DNA of 40,904 nt from the IMG/VR virus record IMGVR_UViG_2687453163_000002, positions 1 to 40,904 of that record; one strand, written 5' to 3'. Source of the DNA: a virus. Taxonomy: Duplodnaviria > Heunggongvirae > Uroviricota > Caudoviricetes. The notes beneath the pieces were generated by a model. That model did not search any database. It was given only the letters and a program-made list of their open reading frames with translations, and was not told the DNA's origin. Positions 30,235 through 40,904 of the stretch are shown here, piece by piece. The translations under genes and the position numbers were made by a program. How positions within the stretch are numbered: the stretch's first letter is position 1; every line of letters begins with the position of its first letter.

Positions 30235-31530
30235 ATGGCTACTTGGCAAGGAACAAACGGCGGATTGTTGGCTGGTATCGGCGGCGTCAACTCAAACGCT
30301 CCGAGCGTAAATGACATCGGCAATACGCTTCAGCTTATCAGGCAGAACAATGATATTGAGCGTTCAGGCGCTAACAATGTTGGGCTGACTGCTTTGCAAG
30401 GCCTTTCAGGTATTGCAGGGGTGTTTCAGCAGGAAAAGCAGGCTCAGCGGCAGAAAGAATTTCAGCAGGCGTACGCTAATGCTTATGCGTCTGGTGATCG
30501 CGGTGCTTTGCGTCAGTTGGCTACTCAATATCCAGACCAGATTGAATCCGTTCGTAAAGGCATGGGATTCATTGATGAAGACCAGCGTAATTCTATCGGC
30601 ACCTTAGCGGCTGGCGCACGCCTTGCGTCATCGTCTCCAGAAGCAATGCAATCATGGCTGCAAAACAACGCCAAGGAACTGACTCGCGTCGGTGTTGACC
30701 CTAACAGCGTTGCTCAGATGTATCAGCAGAATCCTTCAGGATTTGGTGAGTTTGTTGATCACCTTGGGATGGCTGCGCTTGGTCCGATTGATTACTTCAA
30801 TGTTCAGGACAAGATGGCTGGTCGTGAAATTGACCGAGGCAGACTGGCAGAGACAATCCGCAGCAATCAGGCCGGAGAAGCACTAACAGCTCGAGGTCAG
30901 GACATCCAGATACGTGGACAGAACATCAGCGCACAGAATGCTGCTCTTTCCCGCGAAATACAAAGAGCAGAATTACAAGAAAAGGCTCTGGACAGACAAA
31001 TAGCCAGAGAAAGCAATCAGTTAAAGCTTGAAGAGCTAAAACAGAAACAGGCAGATGTTCGGCAAAAGGCTGACATAGCCCGCGCTGACAGGCAGGCCGC
31101 TGCTCAGGGTGCAGTTGATACGTTCAGCACCGCGCTTGATTCTCTCAACGAGATAGAGCAAAGCCCCGGCCTTTCAAAAGCAGTAGGAATTCGCTCAGCG
31201 TTTCCGACAGTTCCTGGCTCTGATGCGGCTAACTTTGAAGCAAGGCTCGACACCTTTAAAGCTCAAACATTCCTTCCTATGGTGCAGTCCCTGAAGGGTA
31301 TGGGCGCTCTTTCAGATGCTGAGGGTAAAAAATTATCCGATGCGGTTGGTGCCCTAAGCCCCAAAATGAGTGAAAAGGCTTTTCGTGACTCTATCGGAAA
31401 GATTAGAAATCAGCTTGAAAGCAAGTTGAGCACTGTTAAAAAACAGTTTGATTATCAGGAGCCGGTGCAGAATATTCCAGGGCAACAATCTACTACTGGC
31501 AGTAACTTTTCTTCACTATGGGGTGATTAA
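30235..31530 (+). CDS. ejection protein (P22 gp20 position)
   Basis: 431-aa ORF in conserved order; coiled-coil middle region. Confidence 0.65.
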   Translation: MATWQGTNGGLLAGIGGVNSNAPSVNDIGNTLQLIRQNNDIERSGANNVGLTALQGLSGIAGVFQQEKQAQRQKEFQQAYANAYASGDRGALRQLATQYPDQIESVRKGMGFIDEDQRNSIGTLAAGARLASSSPEAMQSWLQNNAKELTRVGVDPNSVAQMYQQNPSGFGEFVDHLGMAALGPIDYFNVQDKMAGREIDRGRLAETIRSNQAGEALTARGQDIQIRGQNISAQNAALSREIQRAELQEKALDRQIARESNQLKLEELKQKQADVRQKADIARADRQAAAQGAVDTFSTALDSLNEIEQSPGLSKAVGIRSAFPTVPGSDAANFEARLDTFKAQTFLPMVQSLKGMGALSDAEGKKLSDAVGALSPKMSEKAFRDSIGKIRNQLESKLSTVKKQFDYQEPVQNIPGQQSTTGSNFSSLWGD

Positions 31531-33527
31531 TGGCTAAAGCATGGAAAGATGTTATCGCCTCTCCACAGTATCAGGCGTTAGCACCAGAACAAAAAGCGCA
31601 GGCTCAGGAGCAATACTTCAATGAAGTCGTGGCCCCGCAAGCCGGAGGAAATGCAGAGCAGGCTAAGCAAGCTTTCTATGCAGCCTATCCATTGCCATCT
31701 GTGCAGCCAGTGGAGACACAGCAACCAGTAGCACAGCAACAACCACAGCAAAGTGGATTTATGTCTGATCTTGGTGAAGCAGTGAAAGAGACTGGTCGCG
31801 GACTGGTGCAGGCTGGCGTGAACGTGGCAAACATACCTGCATCAGTTGCCGATGCTGTAACAAGCGCGGCTGCATGGGCTGGCGGTAAACTCGGCATTGG
31901 CGATGGAACATATCAACCCGCGCCACGAGTAACAACTCATGGATTAGAGCAGGACTTTGGCCTTCAGCAAGGCGCGCTGACTCCACAAACGACAGAGGGC
32001 AGGGTATTTGCTGAAGCATTGCCTTACCTCACTCCTGCTGGCGTTGAGAGAGCGGCAGCACAGGCACCAACACTTGCTGGTCGAATTGCTCAGGGGGCAA
32101 CTCGCCTTCTAGCAGAAAACGCAGTTGGATCACTTGCTGCAAATAGTGCGAAAGATGATGCGGAAGCACTCGCCACCGATTTAGGTGTTGGTGTACTTGC
32201 TGGCGGTGCTATTAACGCTGCTGGACGTGGATTAGGTGCTGCTTATCGTGGAGTTCGTGGTGCGATAGCGCCAGAAGCGCAACAGGCTATCAGGTTTGCA
32301 GAGCGTGAAGGAGTGCCTCTGCACACCACAGACCTGTTACAACCAACTTCCCGCGTCGGAAAAATGGCGCAGACTACAGCAGAAAATATCCCTCTGGCTG
32401 GAACAAGCGGAATGAGAGCAACGCAACAGGAAGCGAGAAGCCAGTTGGTGCAGAGATTTGCTGATAAATTCGGGGAGTATGATCCAGCGGTTGTTATTGA
32501 CAGCCTTAAAGCGAAAACATCAGGAATTCGTCGTGCCGCCGGTAATCGACTGGAGCAGGTTCAGAATGCTATGGCTGGAGTAAACATTCAGCCTGCGCGA
32601 GCAATTCAGCAGATTGATACAGAAATATCTAACCTGCAGAAGCTTGGTAAGGTGGCTGATAACGAGACAATTTCAAAACTTCAGTCATATCGTGATGAGC
32701 TTGTTCGCAATGCTGGCCCTGAAGGTCCGGTAAATCTGGATTTGAAGCAATTAAGCGACCTGCGCAGTCAGTTCAGAATGGACGTGAAGGGTGAGCGACC
32801 AGTGTTACCAAACCGTTCCGATGCTGCCATTCAGCGCGTTTACAAGGCGATGACCGACGATATCAATGGTGCCATTGGTCAGAATCTTGGCAACGATACT
32901 CTCCGTAAATATCAGCAGGCCAATGCCGTCTACGCTGACGAAGCGGCGAAACTAAAGAATACCAGGCTGAAGAATGTTCTCATGAAAGGCGACCTGACGC
33001 CGGAAGTTGTCAACAACATGCTATTCAGCAAGAACAAATCGGAAATTAAGACGCTGTATAACTCAGTTGGTCGTGTTGGCAGGGTGCAAATGCGCAATGG
33101 CATCATTGGAAAGGCGATGGAGAAATCTGGCGGATCCCCTGACCAGTTCCTTCGGCAGCTTAACATCCTGCAAAACCAGACTGGCATCACATTTAAGGGG
33201 CAGGACGCTGCTTATCTGAAAGGATTGAAAAATTACCTTCAGTCCACTCAGCAGGCAGCAAAAGCGGCAGTAACAACACCAACAGGGCAGCAAACCATCC
33301 CGTTCATTATCGGGTATGGGACGGCAATGAACCCGGCGACAACTGGCGCAGCAGTAAGCTACGGACTTCTTACTCGCGCCTATGAGAGCGAACCATTCAG
33401 AAATGCAATGCTCCGAATGGCAAACACCCCACGCGGATCAACAGCGTTCGAGAAAGCCATGCAGCAGGCACAAAAGGCCATTAACGCCCTGACTCAGGGG
33501 GCTAAGTCTGATGCGCTGTCAGAATAG
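31530..33527 (+). CDS. ejection protein (P22 gp16 position)
   Basis: 665-aa ORF in conserved order, Ala/Gly-rich segments. Confidence 0.65.
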   Translation: MAKAWKDVIASPQYQALAPEQKAQAQEQYFNEVVAPQAGGNAEQAKQAFYAAYPLPSVQPVETQQPVAQQQPQQSGFMSDLGEAVKETGRGLVQAGVNVANIPASVADAVTSAAAWAGGKLGIGDGTYQPAPRVTTHGLEQDFGLQQGALTPQTTEGRVFAEALPYLTPAGVERAAAQAPTLAGRIAQGATRLLAENAVGSLAANSAKDDAEALATDLGVGVLAGGAINAAGRGLGAAYRGVRGAIAPEAQQAIRFAEREGVPLHTTDLLQPTSRVGKMAQTTAENIPLAGTSGMRATQQEARSQLVQRFADKFGEYDPAVVIDSLKAKTSGIRRAAGNRLEQVQNAMAGVNIQPARAIQQIDTEISNLQKLGKVADNETISKLQSYRDELVRNAGPEGPVNLDLKQLSDLRSQFRMDVKGERPVLPNRSDAAIQRVYKAMTDDINGAIGQNLGNDTLRKYQQANAVYADEAAKLKNTRLKNVLMKGDLTPEVVNNMLFSKNKSEIKTLYNSVGRVGRVQMRNGIIGKAMEKSGGSPDQFLRQLNILQNQTGITFKGQDAAYLKGLKNYLQSTQQAAKAAVTTPTGQQTIPFIIGYGTAMNPATTGAAVSYGLLTRAYESEPFRNAMLRMANTPRGSTAFEKAMQQAQKAINALTQGAKSDALSE

Positions 33528-33877: not shown

Positions 33878-34008
33878 CCTTGATGCCTCACCAATTGGGT
33901 GGAATGGCATCGTAACTTACTGGATAAATACTCAATAGTACCATTTCGGTATGCAATCACATCATGGTTGCATCATATCATTCGTCTGGAGCAATGAAAT
34001 GTCAGATA

Positions 34009-34509
34009 TCACCTACTCAACAGATGGTCAGCAACCATGTTTGCTGCCTTATAAGCTATAGCCGCTTCATCAATGGTGTTGAATCTCCCAAGGGTTATGT
34101 TTTTACCTGAGACATTTATCTGAGCTTGCCATTGATTTCTTGCTTGACAGAAAGTTACCCCCTTGATTCCAGCATTACTATTTCGAGGTCCGACATTTAA
34201 TGCATTTACGACTCTGCTGACATCCCTAAGGTTTGAGATTGCGTTATTTCTTCTGTTTCTATCAATGTGGTCAATCTCTTGTTTGGGCCATTCGCCATAT
34301 ACATACAGCCAGGCAAGTCTATGTGCAAAATATCTTACGCCATCAATATTAATTGCGTTATATCCATAAGAAATTGTGCCAGCAACTTTCCCAACAGCAC
34401 CTCTGGCGCTTAATTTCTTTTTCCAAGTGAAAATTCCTGTTTCTTTATTGTAATCGAGAACTTCCATAAGGCGCTCACGAGTTACTACCTCGTGACGTCT
34501 CTTACTCAT
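34009..34509 (-). CDS. HNH endonuclease with AP2-like DNA-binding domain
   Basis: HNH motif [20 protein letters not shown] and AP2-like [43 protein letters not shown]; start at MSKRRHEV with GGAG RBS; AT-rich. Confidence 0.7.
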
Positions 34510-34522
34510 TATTTTCTCCGGA

Positions 34523-36244
34523 ATGTTTATTATGCCAGAACAATTATACAACGTTGTTGTTTCACAACCAAGTCAGTTATTTACTTTAGCTCGCTCGTTT
34601 AAAGCAAATGCCAATGGCAAAATTTATATCGGTAAAATTGACACTGACCCGGTAAATCCTGAAAACCAGATTCAGGTTTATGTGGAGAACGAAGACGGAT
34701 CTCACGTCCCTGTTTCTCAGCCAATTGTTATCAATGCTGCAGGATATCCTGTGTACAACGGGCAGATTGCCAAATTTGTAACTGAGCAAGGCCATTCAAT
34801 GGCTGTATATGATGCGTATGGTTCGCAGCAGTTCTATTTTCAGAATGTGCTGAAGTACGATCCTGATCAGTTAAAGCAGTTACTTCAATCAGATGAAGGA
34901 GCTGCTCACATTGGCACTAATAGCGGGAAAAATCTCCAAGATGAGCTATTTGCAATAAAAAATGAAATATATCAAGACCCGCTTACATCGTGGCCTTTCG
35001 GTGGAACATTAAAAATAAAGCAAGGGGTGTATGATGTTACCACTCCTCTGGTACTTAATTATGATGATTACCCTGCCGACTTTGTAGGTGCTCCGGGTGT
35101 CCGCTGTTTTTACTCAGGCGAGAACATGGCTGAGACAATACTGGAATGTAGAGCTACTGATTTTAACGTAAAAATGCTAGGTGACGCAGCGTATAACAGT
35201 CAGAGATTGGCTGCATATGACTACATCGGCAACATGACGCTGAAAGGGAATCCCGGAAGTTACGGTATGCTGGTGCAGAATAAAGCACATACTCGTCTTG
35301 AGAACATTGTTATCTGCCGCCACCCTGACGGGGAAGGGTTACGCACTGACTCGATGCTCACGAGCGACATGACGAACGTGTACTTGCAGAGTAATCGTAT
35401 CGGTTGGCGTGCTACCAACTCCGTAAATCATTCTGAACTGAACGCTATAACTGCAAATAGGCTTACGTGCAGTCAGAACAGTGAATGGGGTATCCTCGGG
35501 GACCGCTGGGGTGCTGGTACAACTATCAATAGCCTGACTTGTGAAGGAAATGGTACTCAGGGGGATTCCAGTACAGGTGGTGCGCAATTAGCCATAAATG
35601 GCCTTAACGGTTCGTGTGCTTTGGTGTTAAACAACCCATACTTCGAGGCTAATGCCGGGGGGGCAGACCTTGCTATAGATAATACTGGGACGCGACCTGT
35701 AACTGTGGTTATAAACGGTGGAAATTTTCATCGCGTGAGCAGTGCAAGATACACGCACACGAATATTCAAGTAACAAGCTCAGGTGGGGGAAAAGTTACA
35801 GTCATACTCAACGGCACAACGTTCCAGAGCGCAGGGGATTATCAGCCAAGTGCAGAACGACCATACTGGATAACAGGAGCTAATTGCGAGGTAGTTGACA
35901 TTGGGTGTGTTTTTACAGAAACAACCAGTAAGGTAACATCGGCTTCTGCATTGTCAGTCACACGCTCGGGAAAAATTAACGCCAATGGTAGTATCGACGT
36001 TGCTACTGGTGTTTCATCGGTTAACGTGGTTTCTACAGGTGTGTATGATGTTAGCTTTTCTCATCCGCTCGCAGCAGTTGCTAGCGGTTATATTGTGCAG
36101 ATAACACCTATATCTGCGCCTGATTCAGTTAGTTGTGATGTTACTTATATTGGCGTAGATACATTTAGGGTGACCCTGCGCAATACGCTTAGCGGAGCAG
36201 GAATCTCCAGTTCGTTTGCATTTAGCATTACCAGACTACTATAA
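34523..36244 (+). CDS. tailspike protein (P22/Sf6-type head-binding domain, divergent receptor-binding domain)
   Basis: N-terminal [92 protein letters not shown] matches the conserved head-binding domain; C-terminal about 450 aa not recognised. Confidence 0.85.
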
Positions 36245-36250
36245 ACACGA

Positions 36251-36280
36251 CAGCCTCCCTACGGGAATACGTAGGGAGGC
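36251..36280. terminator. hairpin between convergent tailspike and gtrC genes
   Basis: Perfect 10-bp stem CCTCCCTACG / CGTAGGGAGG with loop GGAATA. Confidence 0.5.
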
Positions 36281-36310
36281 GGATTCATTGTTATTTATTA
36301 ATGTGAAGTT

Positions 36311-37576
36311 TTATTTTTTTATTAAATCAAGAGTTAACCATGGAGGGAGCACTGTAAATGAGACGGCTTCTCCATGTTTTGCTTTATTTATTAATTCTGC
36401 TCCTTGAGACCAGTTCATGTCAGGAAGAGGGGTTATAAAAAAGTTTAATTTTATCATTGCAATAAGGATGACTGAAACATAGATTTTAAAGAATATTTTT
36501 AAGGTTTTATTCTTTATGCATTGAAACAAACAAACGCATATTAATGAAAAAATTGCAATATGAATATTTACAAAATACCTTGACCCGTTTCCGGTTGCAA
36601 GTGTTGGCAGTTGAGGAACAGAATCTGCCAGTTGAGGTTTTGCCATAGAAAATGCGACAATAAGTATTGGAAGGGTGGCAAACACTTTCATTTGCCAATT
36701 TCCTTTAATATAAATGAAAACACATAATGTAATTACTAAAGTTGATAGTGTGTACGATAAAAGGTGATTATCCCATCCAGCATTAGCGATATTCCAAGGG
36801 ACAAATGAAAAAAGAAATACATTAGATGATATTATAGATGACATAACATCAAAACTGAATCCTAATGGAGCATGTGATCTTGTTCCATTAAATGTAAGAA
36901 TTATTGATGTTGCCTGTATCAGCCCACACAAGATCATTGCCAAATATGGCAGTCGAGTATAAAATAAGTATAAACCTCTTATGCTTATTACTCCTTTTGA
37001 TAAGTGTAAATATTTAAAAACAGATGATGCAATTATGAATATAATAAATGGACCGCTCAATCCAGATAATACTATAAAAAATAAATCATGTGCTTTCCAT
37101 AATTTTGACTTGGATTCTTCAGATATTATTATCATTGCAACATACAATGATAAATACCAGTGAGCATTTGTTATATTGGCTTGGACTTCATCAAGCCCGG
37201 GCATGCAAATTAAATATACAGAGATGAAGATTTTTGATGTGGTGCTTAGGAATTTAAATCTATCGGTAAATAAGAACCATATAATTATAGCTCTAATTAT
37301 TATTCCAAAAAAGTTTGATAATAATGGTGCGTAAATTGGATTAATAAATGTCGTCGCACCAACAATGAGTGTTGATACTGTTTGAAAATAACCATTTCTT
37401 GGGGTTATGAGTGAACTGAAAAAACCTTGTTCGTATGCATCTTTATACCAAAAAACTGCATCCTCAGCCCAAAACTGGGCATTTGTCAAAATGTCAATGC
37501 GCCTAAGCCAAATCAAAGTAAATGCAAGTATAAAAATTGATATCTTGTGCCAATTGCGCATTATGAATATCTTCAT
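36311..37576 (-). CDS. GtrC-like serotype-specific O-antigen glucosyltransferase (polytopic membrane protein)
   Basis: 421-aa, very hydrophobic, multi-TM, AT-rich ORF immediately downstream of gtrB. Confidence 0.65.
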   Translation of the reverse strand: MKIFIMRNWHKISIFILAFTLIWLRRIDILTNAQFWAEDAVFWYKDAYEQGFFSSLITPRNGYFQTVSTLIVGATTFINPIYAPLLSNFFGIIIRAIIIWFLFTDRFKFLSTTSKIFISVYLICMPGLDEVQANITNAHWYLSLYVAMIIISEESKSKLWKAHDLFFIVLSGLSGPFIIFIIASSVFKYLHLSKGVISIRGLYLFYTRLPYLAMILCGLIQATSIILTFNGTRSHAPLGFSFDVMSSIISSNVFLFSFVPWNIANAGWDNHLLSYTLSTLVITLCVFIYIKGNWQMKVFATLPILIVAFSMAKPQLADSVPQLPTLATGNGSRYFVNIHIAIFSLICVCLFQCIKNKTLKIFFKIYVSVILIAMIKLNFFITPLPDMNWSQGAELINKAKHGEAVSFTVLPPWLTLDLIKK

Positions 37577-37588
37577 AAGATCATCCTG

Positions 37589-38506
37589 TTATTTTCTGCT
37601 TTTAATTAAGTACCGTGGTCTTGATTTTGTTTCTAAATAAATTCTACCTATATATTCACCGAGAACACCAATCCCGATCAGTTGCACTCCACCCAGGAAA
37701 AGTATTGATACAAGCATGGAGGGATACCCGCGTACTGGGTTACCAAAGACAATGGTGTCTATAATCATCCATGCACCATATAAAAATGAAATGCTTGCAA
37801 CAAACAAGCCTATATAAGTCCATACGCGAAGAGGAAAGGTTGAAAAACTTGTGATACCTTCCAGTGCCAGATTCCATAATTTCCAGCCATTAAATTTTGA
37901 GATGCCAGCAACACGCTCTGTGCGTACATATTCAACGACATCTGTCTGACCACCAACCCAGCTCAGTATGCCTTTCATGAAAAGATTGCGCTCAGGCAAT
38001 AGTTTAATGTTCTCCACAACCTCACGAGACATGAGTCGAAAATCTCCGACATTTTCCTCTATTTTTGGGGTGCTTATTTTGTTGTGTAATTTATAGAACC
38101 ACTCAGCTGTCTTACGTTTCAGCCGTCCATCAGTTGAGCGGTCTGAACGTTTAGCAAGCACCATGTCAGCACCTGCCTGCCACTTTTCAATAAGATGAGG
38201 AATAACCTCAATCGGGTCTTGCAGGTCAACATCAATTGGAATCACGGCATCGCCGGTTGTATGGTCTAACCCTGCAAACAATGCTGGTTCTTTACCAAAG
38301 TTGCGTGTAAATGACAGCGGAACAACTAGCGGATCAGAAACAGCCAGAGCGTTAATGATTGACTCCGTAGCGTCTTTGCTTCCGTCATTTATGAAAACAA
38401 TTTCTACTTCATATGGCTTCAACTCTTCGAATTCACGTACCGTTTTATAAAAAATTGGTATCGCTTCTTCTTCATTGAAGACAGGAACGACAAGAGATAT
38501 CTTCAT
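37589..38506 (-). CDS. gtrB: GtrB bactoprenol glucosyltransferase (GT2 family)
   Basis: 305-aa [23 protein letters not shown]...INDGSKD...DVDLQDP, two C-terminal TM helices. Confidence 0.9.
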
Positions 38507-38865
38507 TTCGCATCCCTAAAGACAATGAACTTTGAATAGACGAAACCGCACACCAAGCTGATGGCGGAGAAGGTAACAAGAGTGACAATTGGAGGAAGTG
38601 AACATCTATCAGCAACCCATCCAACAGTAGCACTCAGTGTTCCCATGAACCCGACATATAACATGTAGCGCATCGTTGTAGTTGATGCTTTGAATGTGAA
38701 TTTTGCATTCGCAAAGAAGCTAAAACTCACAGCCACAACGAAACCTGCGAAGTTTGCCATAGCCTGATTGGTATGCGCGGCATAGATACATACACCAAAA
38801 ACCACCCAGTGTATAAGTGTGTTCAGCACGCCTATAGATGTGTACTTTGCAAATAGCTTTAACAT
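38503..38865 (-). CDS. gtrA: GtrA flippase-like small membrane protein
   Basis: 120-aa four-TM protein, first gene of the gtr operon, overlapping the gtrB start. Confidence 0.85.
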
Positions 38866-39154
38866 TTCTTCTATCAGCTAATAATCAAAGGCATGAAGTC
38901 TATCATCCAAGTCTCAATCGATCGATACTTGCGGTAGTTGATGAGAAAAACTCTGGCACACAAATCTTTGCACTGGATTGCAAGGCTTTGTGCTCTTCTG
39001 TGAATGTGTGGCTATATGTTTGAAGATCGTTGTGCCGTATTTGTGACATATATATGGCAACATCATTCATCAACTTTCTGTTTGTGCCATCAACTATATC
39101 TTAGTGAATGCGGTTAATGCTTGCTAAAACAGATAGTTATGATTGGTGCTACAG

Positions 39155-39218
39155 ATTCGTAATGCGAAGGTCGTAGGTTCGACTCCTATTATCGGCACCA
39201 TTTAAATCAATAAGTTAC
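39155..39218 (+). repeat. attR: attR core: 64-bp direct repeat of the tRNA-Thr 3' region
   Basis: Exact copy of 145-208; not a complete tRNA (5' half absent). Confidence 0.85.
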
Positions 39219-39663
39219 ACATCATTAGTACCTTCCTTATTTCTTGACTGGGACAAATTTGGGACCGATGGGTTCAGAATCAAGTCTATTTGCCGTGCGT
39301 GTTCGGTAAGGTGATTAGGTGCGAGGTGAGCATATCGACGAACCATTTCGATAGACTCCCAGCCTCCCATTTCCTGTAACACTGATAACGGGACTCCGGC
39401 TTGAACCAGCCAACTTGCCCAGGTGTGTCTCAAGTCGTGAAATCTGAAATCATCAATACCAGCCCGTCTCAGCGCCGCTTTCCAGGCTGTGTTTGCGTCA
39501 TACCGCATCTTCCTTACTGTTGGCGCTTTCGTTCCGTCTGGTTTGGTACAGCTTTCCTTGTACACAAATACCCAACGGTGATGATTTCCGATTTGTTTTT
39601 TCAATACGCGACATGCAGTATCATTCAGCGCAACGCCAATTGCGCGGTTTGATTTACTCTCTT
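39215..39663 (-). pseudogene. truncated second integrase (C-terminal about 150 aa only)
   Basis: Contains [42 protein letters not shown], related to but distinct from the intact int; 5' side replaced by the IS end at 39664. Confidence 0.8.
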
Positions 39664-39705
39664 TGAGGTGTACTGGCAATAGCGGACACTACCATTTGTT
39701 CTTTT

Positions 39706-40524
39706 TTAAGCAGCCATCTGATGATATTTTTCCCTGAAGGCTGCCGGGGAGATATTCCCCAGACGAGAGTGACGACGCTGACGATTGTAGAAAATCTCAA
39801 TGTATTCCCGTATTACTGAGATGGCTTCATCCCGGTTATTAAAACGATAGTGGCTCAGGCTCTCATTTTTCAGCGTTCCCCAGAAGCTTTCCATCGGAGC
39901 GTTGTCGTAACAGTTACCTTTACGCGACATTGATGTTTTCAGACCAGACTGCTCCTGTATGACCCGGTAATCGTATGCGCAGTACTGTGAACCTCGATCA
40001 GAGTGGTGGATTAGCCCGGCAGGTGGGCGCTGGCTCCTGAGCGCCATAAACAGGGCTTTACCTGTCAGCTCTTTTGTCATGCGCTCTCCCATGGCGTAGC
40101 CGACAATTTCGCACGTATAAACATCTTTGATGCCAGCGAGGTACAACCATCCCTCCTGTGTGGCAACATACGTCAGGTCCGCCACCCAGACCTGATTTGG
40201 TGCTGTAGGAGCGAACGTCTGGTTCAGCAGATTTGGCGCAACTGGCAGATTGTGGTTCGGGTTCGTAGTCGCTCTGAACTTGCGTTTCTGCTTACAGCGT
40301 AGCCTTAGCTCCTTACGAAGACGTGCCAGTCGGTCACGACCAACGATGATGCCATTCTCTGCCAGCTCCGTCTGGAGCCGCCGGGTTCCATATGTTTCGC
40401 GAGTGCGGATATGTGCCACCTTAATCTCCAGTTTTAGCCGCTCATCACTTTGTTTTCTGTCTGAGGGTTCATGCTGTACCCAGTTGTAATAACCGCTCCT
40501 GGATACACCAAATACCTGACACAT
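39706..40524 (-). CDS. IS3-family transposase OrfB (DDE integrase core)
   Basis: 272-aa ORF with DDE-type core (WVADLTY..., HSDRGSQY..., NAPMESFWGTLK). Confidence 0.85.
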   Translation of the reverse strand: MCQVFGVSRSGYYNWVQHEPSDRKQSDERLKLEIKVAHIRTRETYGTRRLQTELAENGIIVGRDRLARLRKELRLRCKQKRKFRATTNPNHNLPVAPNLLNQTFAPTAPNQVWVADLTYVATQEGWLYLAGIKDVYTCEIVGYAMGERMTKELTGKALFMALRSQRPPAGLIHHSDRGSQYCAYDYRVIQEQSGLKTSMSRKGNCYDNAPMESFWGTLKNESLSHYRFNNRDEAISVIREYIEIFYNRQRRHSRLGNISPAAFREKYHQMAA

Positions 40525-40559
40525 CGCTTCAATGGGAAATTGTTGTCGCCATTGTTCGA

Positions 40560-40904
40560 TTAACGCGTATTTTTCAGCGACTCCTGTGCAAAATACGCTG
40601 TTGCTTTTTTTAATATATCTCGCTCAAGGCGAGCTTCATTTAACGCCTTACGCAGTTGCAGAATTTCAGATTCCAGTTCAGCCAGCGTGCGGGAACCAGG
40701 AGTACCGAGCCCTTTTCTGGCGGCGGTAACCCATTGTCCTAAAGTGCCTTCAGGAAGAGATAATCGGGAAGCGCCTTCACTGATCGAAAGTTGATTTTCA
40801 AGAACCGTTCTGACAGCTTCGGCTTTGAACTCTTTAGAGTAACGTTGAACCGCCCCGGGTTTCCTGGAGAGTGTTTTATCTGTGAACTCAGGCTGCCAGA
40901 TCAT
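40560..40904 (-). CDS. IS3-family OrfA (HTH), start uncertain, runs to the window edge
   Basis: QRYSKEFKAEAVRTVLENQLSISEGASRLSLPEGTLGQWV HTH plus leucine-zipper-like C-terminus, matching recalled IS600 OrfA. Confidence 0.75.
   Translation of the reverse strand: MIWQPEFTDKTLSRKPGAVQRYSKEFKAEAVRTVLENQLSISEGASRLSLPEGTLGQWVTAARKGLGTPGSRTLAELESEILQLRKALNEARLERDILKKATAYFAQESLKNTR

What the first reader, a model, noticed from the sequence alone, without database searches (positions are those of the whole stretch)
34523..36244. Tailspike with conserved head-binding domain but short, unrecognised receptor-binding domain
The first roughly 110 residues match the P22/Sf6 head-binding domain closely, but the remaining roughly 450 residues are not recognisable to me and the protein is shorter (573 aa) than the P22 tailspike. 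This is the expected locus of host-range switching and could encode a new glycan specificity.
Basis: partly seen in the sequence, partly recalled or inferred. Interest (0 to 1): 0.45.

Follow-up and report, generated by a model that had tools for sequence, protein, structure and literature searches.

The report
Tailspike of Shigella phage SfX
This gene is the tailspike of the long-known Shigella flexneri serotype-converting phage SfX: a standard P22-type attachment domain joined to a beta-helix receptor-binding domain shared with Shigella phages Sf101 and Sf11, so it is an ordinary gene already in the databases, although nobody has measured its enzyme activity.

The parts
34532..36244 (+). Tailspike coding sequence, most likely extent (570 aa plus stop).
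   Evidence: ORF. The 570-aa product is an exact match to NCBI S. flexneri proteins (MDD0040543.1 and others) on 18 contigs. The 573-aa version is not on record. Homologues are 570 aa.
34532..34870 (+). Head-binding (tail-attachment) domain, residues 1-113
   Evidence: Pfam PF09008 at E 4.2e-62. Matches Sf6 gp14 N-terminus 7sg7 and P22 1lkt.
34862..35002 (+). Helical neck/linker and beta-helix cap, residues ~111-157
   Evidence: Helices 111-118, 123-126, 135-146 and 150-156 in the AF2 model. The only region weakly alignable to the Sf6 tailspike cap.
35003..35902 (+). Right-handed parallel beta-helix, residues ~158-457: the predicted O-antigen binding and cleaving body
35018..35611 (+). Divergent SfX-lineage cassette inside the beta-helix (aa ~163-360)
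   Evidence: 40-73% nt identity to the PapM-32-1 and Sf101 alleles here, against 87-100% in the PapM-32-1 flanks. At protein level it is closest (81-86%) to some 585-aa Sf11-type proteins and 70-72% to P22-type prophage tailspikes.
35543..35545 (+). Codon of E338 (motif LTCEGNGT), candidate catalytic carboxylate
   Evidence: Invariant in 30 relatives and >=90% conserved in 66 members at 24-60% identity. Last residue of strand 217-219 of the domain model. Coordinates.
35645..35647 (+). Codon of E372 (motif [13 protein letters not shown]), candidate catalytic carboxylate. Y370, N374 and D379 (35666-35668) are conserved beside it.
   Evidence: Conservation. Last residue of the equivalent strand 251-253 one rung later. 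Coordinates.
35732..35734 (+). Codon of R401 (motif GNFHR), invariant arginine on the next rung
   Evidence: Invariant. Last residue of the equivalent strand 279-282. Coordinates.
35963..36235 (+). C-terminal beta-sandwich-like domain, residues ~478-568
   Evidence: Eight strands at pLDDT about 90 in the domain model. The last 150 nt are about 100% identical to the Sf101 and PapM-32-1 alleles.
36253..36280 (.). GC-rich hairpin (11-bp stem) between the convergent tailspike and gtrX genes. Probably a terminator serving both directions.
   Evidence: Terminator-like site; sequence. Sf6 has an annotated terminator in the same position.
34014..34579 (.). Inserted 566-nt cassette: the HNH_3+AP2 endonuclease gene (34009..34509, minus strand) plus a replacement 5' end for the tailspike (first 16 codons)
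   Evidence: Relatives align up to 34013 and resume at 34580. Pfam HNH_3 at 2e-16 and AP2 at 4e-6. The same cassette is 98.4% identical in phage Kapi1 and present in 15 of 5426 E. coli genomes.
33999..34013 (+). Orphaned original start of the tailspike gene (ATG TCA GAT ATC ACC = MSDIT) behind its GGAG ribosome-binding site
   Evidence: Identical to the first 15 nt of the PapM-32-1 tailspike gene. It now opens a 20-codon dead-end frame.
36311..37561 (-). gtrX, serotype X-specific O-antigen glucosyltransferase (context: it modifies the receptor this tailspike is expected to use)
   Evidence: 415/415 aa identical to SfX GtrX AAA71895.1. 99.7% nt identity to L05001.
37589..38865 (-). gtrB (37589-38506) and gtrA (38503-38865)
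   Evidence: Pfam Glycos_transf_2 at 1e-30 and GtrA_DPMS_TM at 2.5e-13.

Best explanation
This is the tailspike of the SfX prophage of Shigella flexneri. Shown: residues 1-113 are a P22/Sf6-type head-binding domain, the part that plugs the spike onto the tail hub of this Sf6-like virion. Shown by prediction: residues ~158-457 form a right-handed parallel beta-helix, followed by a small beta domain. Shown by homology: this receptor-binding part belongs to the family that includes Sf101 gp15 and Sf11 gp13, and it is distinct in sequence from the Sf6 endorhamnosidase. Inferred: like other P22-type spikes it is a homotrimer. It binds the S. flexneri O-antigen backbone (serotype Y type) and cuts it as an endoglycosidase, so the virion can work its way down to the outer membrane. 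The O-antigen is neutral and rich in rhamnose, so the enzyme is most likely an endorhamnosidase. The proposed catalytic centre is the family-wide conserved ladder E338 - E372 (with Y370, N374, D379) - R401 on three consecutive rungs. The divergent cassette (aa ~163-360) lies mostly on the N-terminal side of that centre. It is the likeliest determinant of which O-antigen decorations are tolerated. The prophage's own GtrX glucosylation would then spoil the receptor for this spike type.
Against: No enzymatic assay exists for any member of this family. The Sf11 paper calls gp13 'LPS-hydrolyzing' by analogy only. The trimer was not modelled and I had no model coordinates. I therefore could not measure carboxylate distances or see whether the ladder faces a groove. 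Profile comparison to the Sf6 spike does not reach the catalytic region, so the catalytic assignment rests on conservation alone. The bond cleaved is unknown. SfX failing on 1a strains could have causes other than receptor modification.
Confidence: 0.72

Rival explanations
1. It is an O-antigen endoglycosidase that cuts a different bond from Sf6. For example it could cut the GlcNAc-beta-1,2-Rha bond, acting as an endo-N-acetylglucosaminidase like the HK620 spike, rather than a Rha-Rha bond.
For: The beta-helix is not detectably homologous to the Sf6 endorhamnosidase in the catalytic region. HK620-type spikes also appear among the fold matches. Sf101 does not plate on serotype X, whereas from general knowledge Sf6 does, which hints at a different binding register on the same polymer.
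Against: Nothing here speaks for any particular bond. Three of the four sugars in the repeat are rhamnose, so a rhamnosidic bond is the prior expectation.
Confidence: 0.2
2. It is a binding-only spike: a trimeric adhesin that recognises O-antigen but has no catalytic activity.
For: No activity has been measured for any family member. There is no match to any curated glycosidase family.
Against: A Glu-Glu-Asp-Arg constellation is conserved on consecutive rungs across relatives down to 24% identity, including relatives in Aeromonas and Pseudomonas phages. That is hard to explain by binding to different glycans. From general knowledge, P22-type podophages rely on O-antigen cleavage to reach the membrane.
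Confidence: 0.1
3. It is an O-acetyl esterase (deacetylating spike) acting on acetylated S. flexneri O-antigen.
For: From general knowledge, deacetylating spikes exist in other phages (one example surfaced, PMC6989608). S. flexneri O-antigens carry O-acetyl groups.
Against: No Ser or His is conserved family-wide that could form an esterase triad. The conserved polar set is Glu/Glu/Asp/Arg/Asn/Tyr, and H400 is not among the >=90% conserved positions. No SGNH or esterase domain was found.
Confidence: 0.04
4. It is a decaying prophage gene that no longer makes a working spike, because its 5' end was disrupted by the HNH insertion and many Shigella copies are truncated.
For: Most members of its 90% cluster are IS-truncated or partial copies. 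The original start codon has been orphaned. The ribosome-binding site before 34532 is weak.
Against: The ORF is intact, and identical copies occur on 18 contigs. Plaque-forming phage Kapi1 carries the same cassette and the identical new N-terminus. SfX was induced from strain 2002017 and lysogenised new hosts. Substitutions in the rewritten codons 7-26 are mostly synonymous, 13 against 5.
Confidence: 0.05

Closest known systems
Tail protein gp15 of Shigella phage Sf101 (YP_009153089.1)
   Same: Same architecture: a P22-type head-binding domain plus this beta-helix family. It is 78% identical overall and 74% over the receptor-binding part. It sits in the same genomic position, next to an O-antigen-modifying gene. 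Its host is S. flexneri, including serotype Y.
   Different: It has a 10-residue duplication in the neck. It is only ~47-70% nt identical across nt ~490-1000 of the gene and is diverged through most of the remaining beta-helix. There is no HNH cassette upstream. Reported host ranges differ: Sf101 plates on 1a strains, SfX did not. It is not characterised biochemically either.
Tailspike gp13 of Shigella siphophage Sf11 (PDB 9OCC chain G; PMC12724387)
   Same: The receptor-binding domain is homologous at 72% identity over residues 124-572 (E 4e-217). Sf11 requires complete LPS with O-antigen on a serotype Y host.
   Different: It has a different N-terminal adaptor (Tail_spike_N PF18668 helices that dock onto a siphophage distal tail protein). 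Only residues 4-59 were modelled experimentally, so the shared domain has no experimental structure.
Sf6 tailspike gp14, the endorhamnosidase of S. flexneri phage Sf6 (PDB 2VBK, 4URR, 7UKJ)
   Same: The head-binding domain is nearly identical, about 92%. The overall plan is the same: head-binding domain, beta-helix, small C-terminal domain. The host species and O-antigen backbone are the same. It is among the best Foldseek matches.
P22 gp9 tailspike
   Same: The head-binding domain is about 72% identical. It has the same position and role in a P22-like virion, and a beta-helix body.
   Different: It is 667 aa, and its beta-helix and interdigitated C-terminus are unrelated in sequence.
Generic pectin-lyase-fold beta-helix enzymes and spikes (Geobacillus virus E2 ORF18 7CHU, CBA120 TSP2 5W6P, AlgE4 epimerase 2PYG)
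   Different: Identity is 14-16% for these three, with no sequence-level family match. Lyase or epimerase chemistry needs uronic acids, which the S. flexneri O-antigen lacks (general knowledge).

Membership tests
P22-like podophage tailspike (head-binding domain plus beta-helix receptor-binding domain) | N-terminal Head_binding domain (PF09008) | tested here: met
   E 4.2e-62 with full profile coverage 1-113/113. Matches solved P22 and Sf6 head-binding domains.
P22-like podophage tailspike (head-binding domain plus beta-helix receptor-binding domain) | Right-handed parallel beta-helix body | tested here: met
P22-like podophage tailspike (head-binding domain plus beta-helix receptor-binding domain) | Gene lies at the end of the virion module, after the ejection-protein genes and before the conversion/integration genes | tested here: met
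   Upstream genes are 98% identical to Sf6 portal-to-ejection genes. The order ejection gene, arc/mnt, tailspike, gtr is as in the PapM-32-1 prophage, and ejection gene, tailspike, conversion gene (oac) as in Sf6.
P22-like podophage tailspike (head-binding domain plus beta-helix receptor-binding domain) | Homotrimer assembled on the tail hub | not testable with these tools
   Only monomer prediction was available. Inferred from the head-binding domain.
P22-like podophage tailspike (head-binding domain plus beta-helix receptor-binding domain) | Binds and cleaves host O-antigen | not testable with these tools
   Only indirect evidence: host ranges of SfX, Sf101 and Sf11 from papers and a conserved acidic ladder.
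Sf101/Sf11-type receptor-binding domain family (PHROG 17420) | Full-length or domain-length sequence homology to Sf101 gp15 and Sf11 gp13 | tested here: met
   phrog_17420 at E 1.4e-292 over residues 3-572. 74% and 72% identity over the whole domain. 9occ_G at E 4e-217.
Sf101/Sf11-type receptor-binding domain family (PHROG 17420) | Family-wide conserved motifs EGNGT / YFExNxGxADL / F(N/H)R | tested here: met
   All three are present: [20 protein letters not shown] and NFHR.
Sf6-type endorhamnosidase tailspike family | Sequence homology of the beta-helix, including the catalytic rungs (Sf6 E366/D399, from general knowledge) | tested here: not met
   phmmer matches only the head-binding domain. 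Profile comparison of the 66-member family against the Sf6 receptor-binding domain gives probability 52% and covers only the cap and first rungs.
Sf6-type endorhamnosidase tailspike family | Endo-alpha-1,3-rhamnosidase activity on S. flexneri O-antigen | not testable with these tools
   Needs biochemistry.
Curated glycoside hydrolase / pectate lyase sequence families (e.g. GH28, Pectate_lyase_3, Beta_helix) | Match to a curated family profile | tested here: not met
   No Pfam hit in residues 117-570 at E<=1, and none for 29 of 30 relatives. No NCBIfam hit. Only the fold is shared.

The most novel reading that the evidence does not exclude
The SfX/Sf101/Sf11-type domain may be a separate, not yet catalogued family of O-antigen endoglycosidases with a Glu-Glu-Arg ladder as its active centre. 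It would attack the S. flexneri O-antigen in a different register, or at a different bond, from the Sf6 endorhamnosidase. The SfX-specific cassette (aa ~163-360), apparently exchanged with siphophage-type spikes, would then set a decoration tolerance different from Sf101's. In addition, the HNH cassette lodged in the gene's 5' end may cut HNH-free tailspike genes at the conserved head-binding sequence. It would then drive its own spread, and the spread of linked spike sequence, between P22-like phages.
Probability: 0.3. Interest if true: 0.5.

Novelty: already known. Interest (0 to 1): 0.25.

Why it matters
The gene confirms textbook modularity: a constant adaptor joined to an exchangeable receptor-binding body at the host-range locus. 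Three modest points go beyond that. First, S. flexneri phages use at least two beta-helix families, unrelated in sequence, against the same O-antigen backbone: the Sf6 type and the SfX/Sf101/Sf11 type. The second type has no enzymology and no experimental structure, although it occurs in a classical serotype-converting phage. That matters for Shigella serotype evolution and for phage-based or glycoconjugate tools that currently rely on the Sf6 spike. Second, the same body sits behind three different adaptors (P22 head-binding, Tail_spike_N, T7 tail-fibre N-terminus), and recombination occurs even inside the beta-helix. Third, a rare mobile HNH cassette sits inside the conserved 5' end of tailspike genes. 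This is a testable candidate mechanism for moving spikes between phages.

Tried and rejected
1. Exact look-up of the 573-aa product found nothing. The cause was start-codon choice, because the 570-aa product is on record.
2. PDB 9OCC looked like a solved structure of the domain. The paper shows only residues 4-59 of gp13 were built, so it gives no experimental structure for the domain.
3. Pfam, NCBIfam and a PDB profile search on the receptor-binding part gave nothing beyond Sf11 gp13.
4. The profile comparison with the Sf6 spike was run to transfer catalytic residues. With the full-length alignment the score came from the head-binding domain. With the domain-only alignment it was marginal and stopped before the catalytic rungs. 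No transfer was possible.
6. The promoter scan around the gene was no better than shuffled sequence: 6 sites found against 7.2 expected. No promoter is claimed.
7. A tRNA search at the right end, looking for thrW/attR, found none.
8. Literature searches found no paper on SfX tailspike enzymology and none on HNH insertion at tailspike 5' ends.
9. I could not reconcile the Sf101 paper's statement of 'very limited homology' between the C-termini of the Sf101 and SfX spikes with the 74% identity found here. The record they used (NC_017328) is not in the collections available to me.

Full report
**Observation.** A six-frame ORF scan lists an uninterrupted ORF at exactly 34523..36244 on the + strand, 573 codons. 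Pfam places a complete Head_binding domain (PF09008) at residues 4-116 with E 4.2e-62. It finds nothing else credible in the other ~450 residues, and NCBIfam finds nothing at all. Against PDB sequences, the N-terminus matches Sf6 gp14 (E 8e-64) and the P22 tailspike (E ~1e-46; P22 is 667 aa). Foldseek reports about 92% identity to the Sf6 head-binding domain and about 72% to the P22 one. The 573-aa product is not in the 15-billion-protein collection. The 570-aa product starting at the ATG at 34532 is an exact match to NCBI entries named 'phage head-binding domain-containing protein [Shigella flexneri]', seen on 18 contigs. Sf6, Sf101 and E. coli homologues start at that position too. All residue numbers below use the 570-aa numbering.

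**What the window is.** The 1730-bp GenBank record L05001 ('Bacteriophage X glucosyl transferase gene', phage SfX) aligns to window 35855..37582 at 99.7%, with 5 mismatches in 1728. The membrane protein encoded just downstream on the minus strand is 415/415 identical to SfX GtrX. It is followed by gtrB and gtrA, an integrase fragment and an IS3-family element. This layout was published for the thrW/proA region of S. flexneri carrying SfX (PMC3306764). The virion genes upstream are 98% identical to Sf6. The gene is therefore the tailspike of the SfX prophage, a classical serotype-converting podophage (PMC3851460, PMC4159516).

**The receptor-binding part has relatives.**
- It matches PHROG 17420 ('tail protein') end to end at E 1.4e-292.
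- By tblastn, residues 120-570 are 74% identical to the tail protein of Shigella phage Sf101 and 72% to a tail protein of Shigella siphophage Sf11. They are 27-35% identical to proteins of Aeromonas and Pseudomonas phages.
- The PDB sequence hit 9occ_G (E 4e-217) is Sf11 gp13. The paper behind it (PMC12724387) shows that only residues 4-59 of gp13 were modelled. The rest is an AlphaFold picture, so the shared domain has no experimental structure.
- That paper shows Sf11 needs complete LPS including O-antigen to plate on a serotype Y host, but it reports no enzymatic assay.
- In the 5.8-billion-protein search, the nearest full-length relatives outside the protein's own cluster are 76-84% identical 570-aa proteins of S. 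flexneri and E. coli prophages. Next come 585-aa Sf11-type proteins (62-72% over the domain), then 46-49% relatives such as one from Buttiauxella.
- An exhaustive HMMER scan of 1.84 billion cluster representatives finds 342 at E<=1e-3 and 58 at E<=1e-30. The family is real but modest in size.
- Among 30 aligned relatives, the same body sits behind three adaptor types: P22 head-binding (14 members), Tail_spike_N PF18668 (13) and the T7 tail-fibre N-terminus PF03906 (2).

**Fold.**
- AlphaFold2 with 30 relatives gives mean pLDDT 81.6. The model has the head-binding domain, helices at 111-156, a long run of short strands at 158-457, and a beta domain at 478-568.
- The domain alone, with 66 diverse relatives, gives pLDDT 91.8.
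- Foldseek ranks Sf6, P22, Det7 and HK620 spikes high, with TM <= 0.44.
- The fold is thus the ordinary tailspike/pectin-lyase beta-helix, with no close solved relative.

**Relationship to Sf6.** Sf6 and SfX share the host species and nearly the same head-binding domain, but their beta-helices are not detectably homologous. phmmer aligns only residues 7-121. A profile of the 66-member family against the Sf6 receptor-binding domain gives probability 52% and covers only the cap and first rungs. I therefore do not file the protein in the Sf6 endorhamnosidase family. It probably works like it.

**Mechanism.**
- Over 66 members sharing 24-60% identity with the query, few polar residues stay >=90% conserved.
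- These include E338 (motif EGNGT), Y370-E372-N374-D379 (motif YFExNxGxADL), N384, R401 (motif F-N/H-R), Y437 and R443. N304 is also conserved.
- In the high-confidence model, fragment strands 217-219, 251-253, 279-282 and 311-314 are the equivalent short strands of four successive rungs. E338, E372 and R401 are each the last residue of theirs.
- I infer that these three residues form a ladder along one face of the helix.
- Relatives occur in phages of other genera, such as Aeromonas and Pseudomonas phages. Conservation at that distance fits catalysis better than recognition of one glycan.
- From general knowledge, the catalytic acids of the P22, Sf6 and HK620 spikes also lie about 33 residues apart on adjacent rungs, and the S. 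flexneri O-antigen is neutral, which excludes lyase chemistry.
- My best explanation is a trimeric O-antigen endoglycosidase, most likely an endorhamnosidase.
- The steps not shown are trimerisation, groove geometry, activity and the bond cut.
- Host-range data agree with an O-antigen receptor. SfX lysogenises serotype Y but could not infect 1a strains. Sf101 plates on Y, 1a, 1b and 3b but not X, so the modification made by SfX's own GtrX may block this spike type.

**Mosaicism.**
- Against the E. coli PapM-32-1 prophage allele, nt 90-480 of the gene are 93-100% identical. Nt ~490-1080 drop to 40-73%, apart from one 93% window at nt 991-1020.
- Nt 1080-1350 return to 87-100%, nt 1350-1560 are 63-87%, and the last 150 nt are about 100%.
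- The divergent cassette (aa ~163-360) is 99-100% identical only within the protein's own S. flexneri cluster. It is 81-86% identical to a few 585-aa Sf11-type proteins and only 70-72% to the other P22-type prophage spikes.
- Recombination thus happens inside the beta-helix and across phage morphotypes.
- The cassette lies mostly N-terminal to the proposed catalytic rungs. In P22 and Sf6 (general knowledge) the bound O-antigen lies on that side. It is therefore the likeliest place for differences in decoration tolerance between SfX and Sf101. This is an inference.

**An insertion in the gene's 5' end.**
- HNH-free relatives (PapM-32-1, Sf101, Sf6 and a Shigella remnant) align with the window up to 34013 and resume at 34580.
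- Window 33999-34013 reads ATG TCA GAT ATC ACC behind a GGAG. That is exactly the start of the relatives' tailspike gene, and here it is orphaned.
- The intervening 566 nt hold a minus-strand ORF with HNH_3 and AP2 domains and a new start for the tailspike ([15 protein letters not shown]...).
- Codons 1-16 are only 42% identical in DNA to the HNH-free allele. In codons 7-26 there are 13 synonymous and 5 non-synonymous differences.
- The same cassette, 98.4% identical, sits directly upstream of the tailspike of E. coli phage Kapi1. That spike starts with the identical 60 residues but has an unrelated 792-aa body.
- Kapi1 forms plaques, so the rewritten N-terminus works.
- The cassette occurs in 15 of 5426 complete E. 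coli genomes, always beside a head-binding-domain gene and at >=98.6% identity.
- I found no paper describing it.
- It looks like a free-standing homing endonuclease gene whose carrier allele is recoded at the presumed target. Cleavage and homing were not tested.

**Other context.**
- Most members of the protein's 90% cluster (260 sequences) are partial. One example is a 333-aa copy cut by an IS element in a 4.5-Mb Shigella chromosome, so remnants of this spike are common in S. flexneri.
- A GC-rich hairpin at 36253-36280 separates the convergent tailspike and gtrX genes.

**Verdict.**
It is the host-range locus, and the body is a beta-helix with candidate catalytic acids.
- It is the already sequenced tailspike of a known phage. 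Its nearest relatives belong to other S. flexneri phages, so a new glycan specificity is unlikely.
- Novelty: already known as a gene and as a kind.
- What remains open is the biochemistry of this Sf101/Sf11/SfX-type domain, the meaning of the internal cassette, and the HNH element.
- Interest: 0.25.

Noticed in passing
window 33999-34579 (HNH ORF 34009..34509, minus strand): A 566-nt cassette with an HNH_3+AP2 endonuclease gene is inserted after codon 5 of the ancestral tailspike gene. It orphans the old start (33999-34013) and supplies a recoded new 5' end. The same cassette (98.4%) sits upstream of the unrelated-bodied tailspike of E. coli phage Kapi1. It occurs in 15 of 5426 complete E. 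coli genomes, always next to a head-binding-domain gene. It is a candidate homing endonuclease targeting the conserved 5' end of P22-like tailspike genes. I found no paper describing it.
   Followed up: partly
L003 6001-7002 (CP026810.1, Shigella chromosome) and cluster 1: The same SfX-type tailspike (98% identical) is cut off at codon 333 by an IS element in a 4.5-Mb Shigella chromosome next to the proBA/thrW region. Most of the 260 sequences in the protein's 90% cluster are such partial copies, so decayed SfX-type prophages are common in S. flexneri.
   Followed up: partly
alignment A1 members; e.g. P0036, P0038, P0045: The same receptor-binding body is found behind three different N-terminal adaptors: P22 Head_binding (PF09008), Tail_spike_N (PF18668, as in siphophage Sf11) and the T7 tail-fibre N-terminal domain (PF03906). 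This implies transfer between podophage, siphophage and T7-like tails.
   Followed up: partly
window 34532-36244 compared with L005 2953-4695 (Sf101): The Sf101 genome paper (PMC4159516) states that the C-terminal parts of the Sf101 and SfX tail spikes have 'very limited homology'. Here they are 74% identical over the receptor-binding part (78% overall). The SfX record used there (NC_017328) was not available to me, so the discrepancy is unexplained.
   Followed up: no
window 36253-36280: A perfect 11-bp GC-rich hairpin lies between the convergent tailspike and gtrX genes. It is probably a terminator serving both directions. Sf6 has an annotated terminator at the equivalent spot.
   Followed up: partly
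window 39215-40904: After gtrA come a 153-aa integrase fragment and an IS3-family element (orfB with rve domains, orfA with HTH_Tnp_1). No tRNA gene is found in 38000-40904. This shows the window is a prophage in a Shigella chromosome, not a free phage genome.
   Followed up: partly
window 31530-33527: The 665-aa ORF upstream has no Pfam match at E<=0.001, although its 97.8%-identical counterpart in E. coli PapM-32-1 is annotated 'lytic transglycosylase domain-containing protein'. It is the Sf6 gp13 / P22 gp16-type DNA transfer protein.
   Followed up: no
L005 (Sf101 tail protein residues ~134-153): The Sf101 tail protein carries a 10-residue tandem duplication (NLQEELFAIK twice) in the helical neck, relative to the SfX protein.
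   Followed up: no
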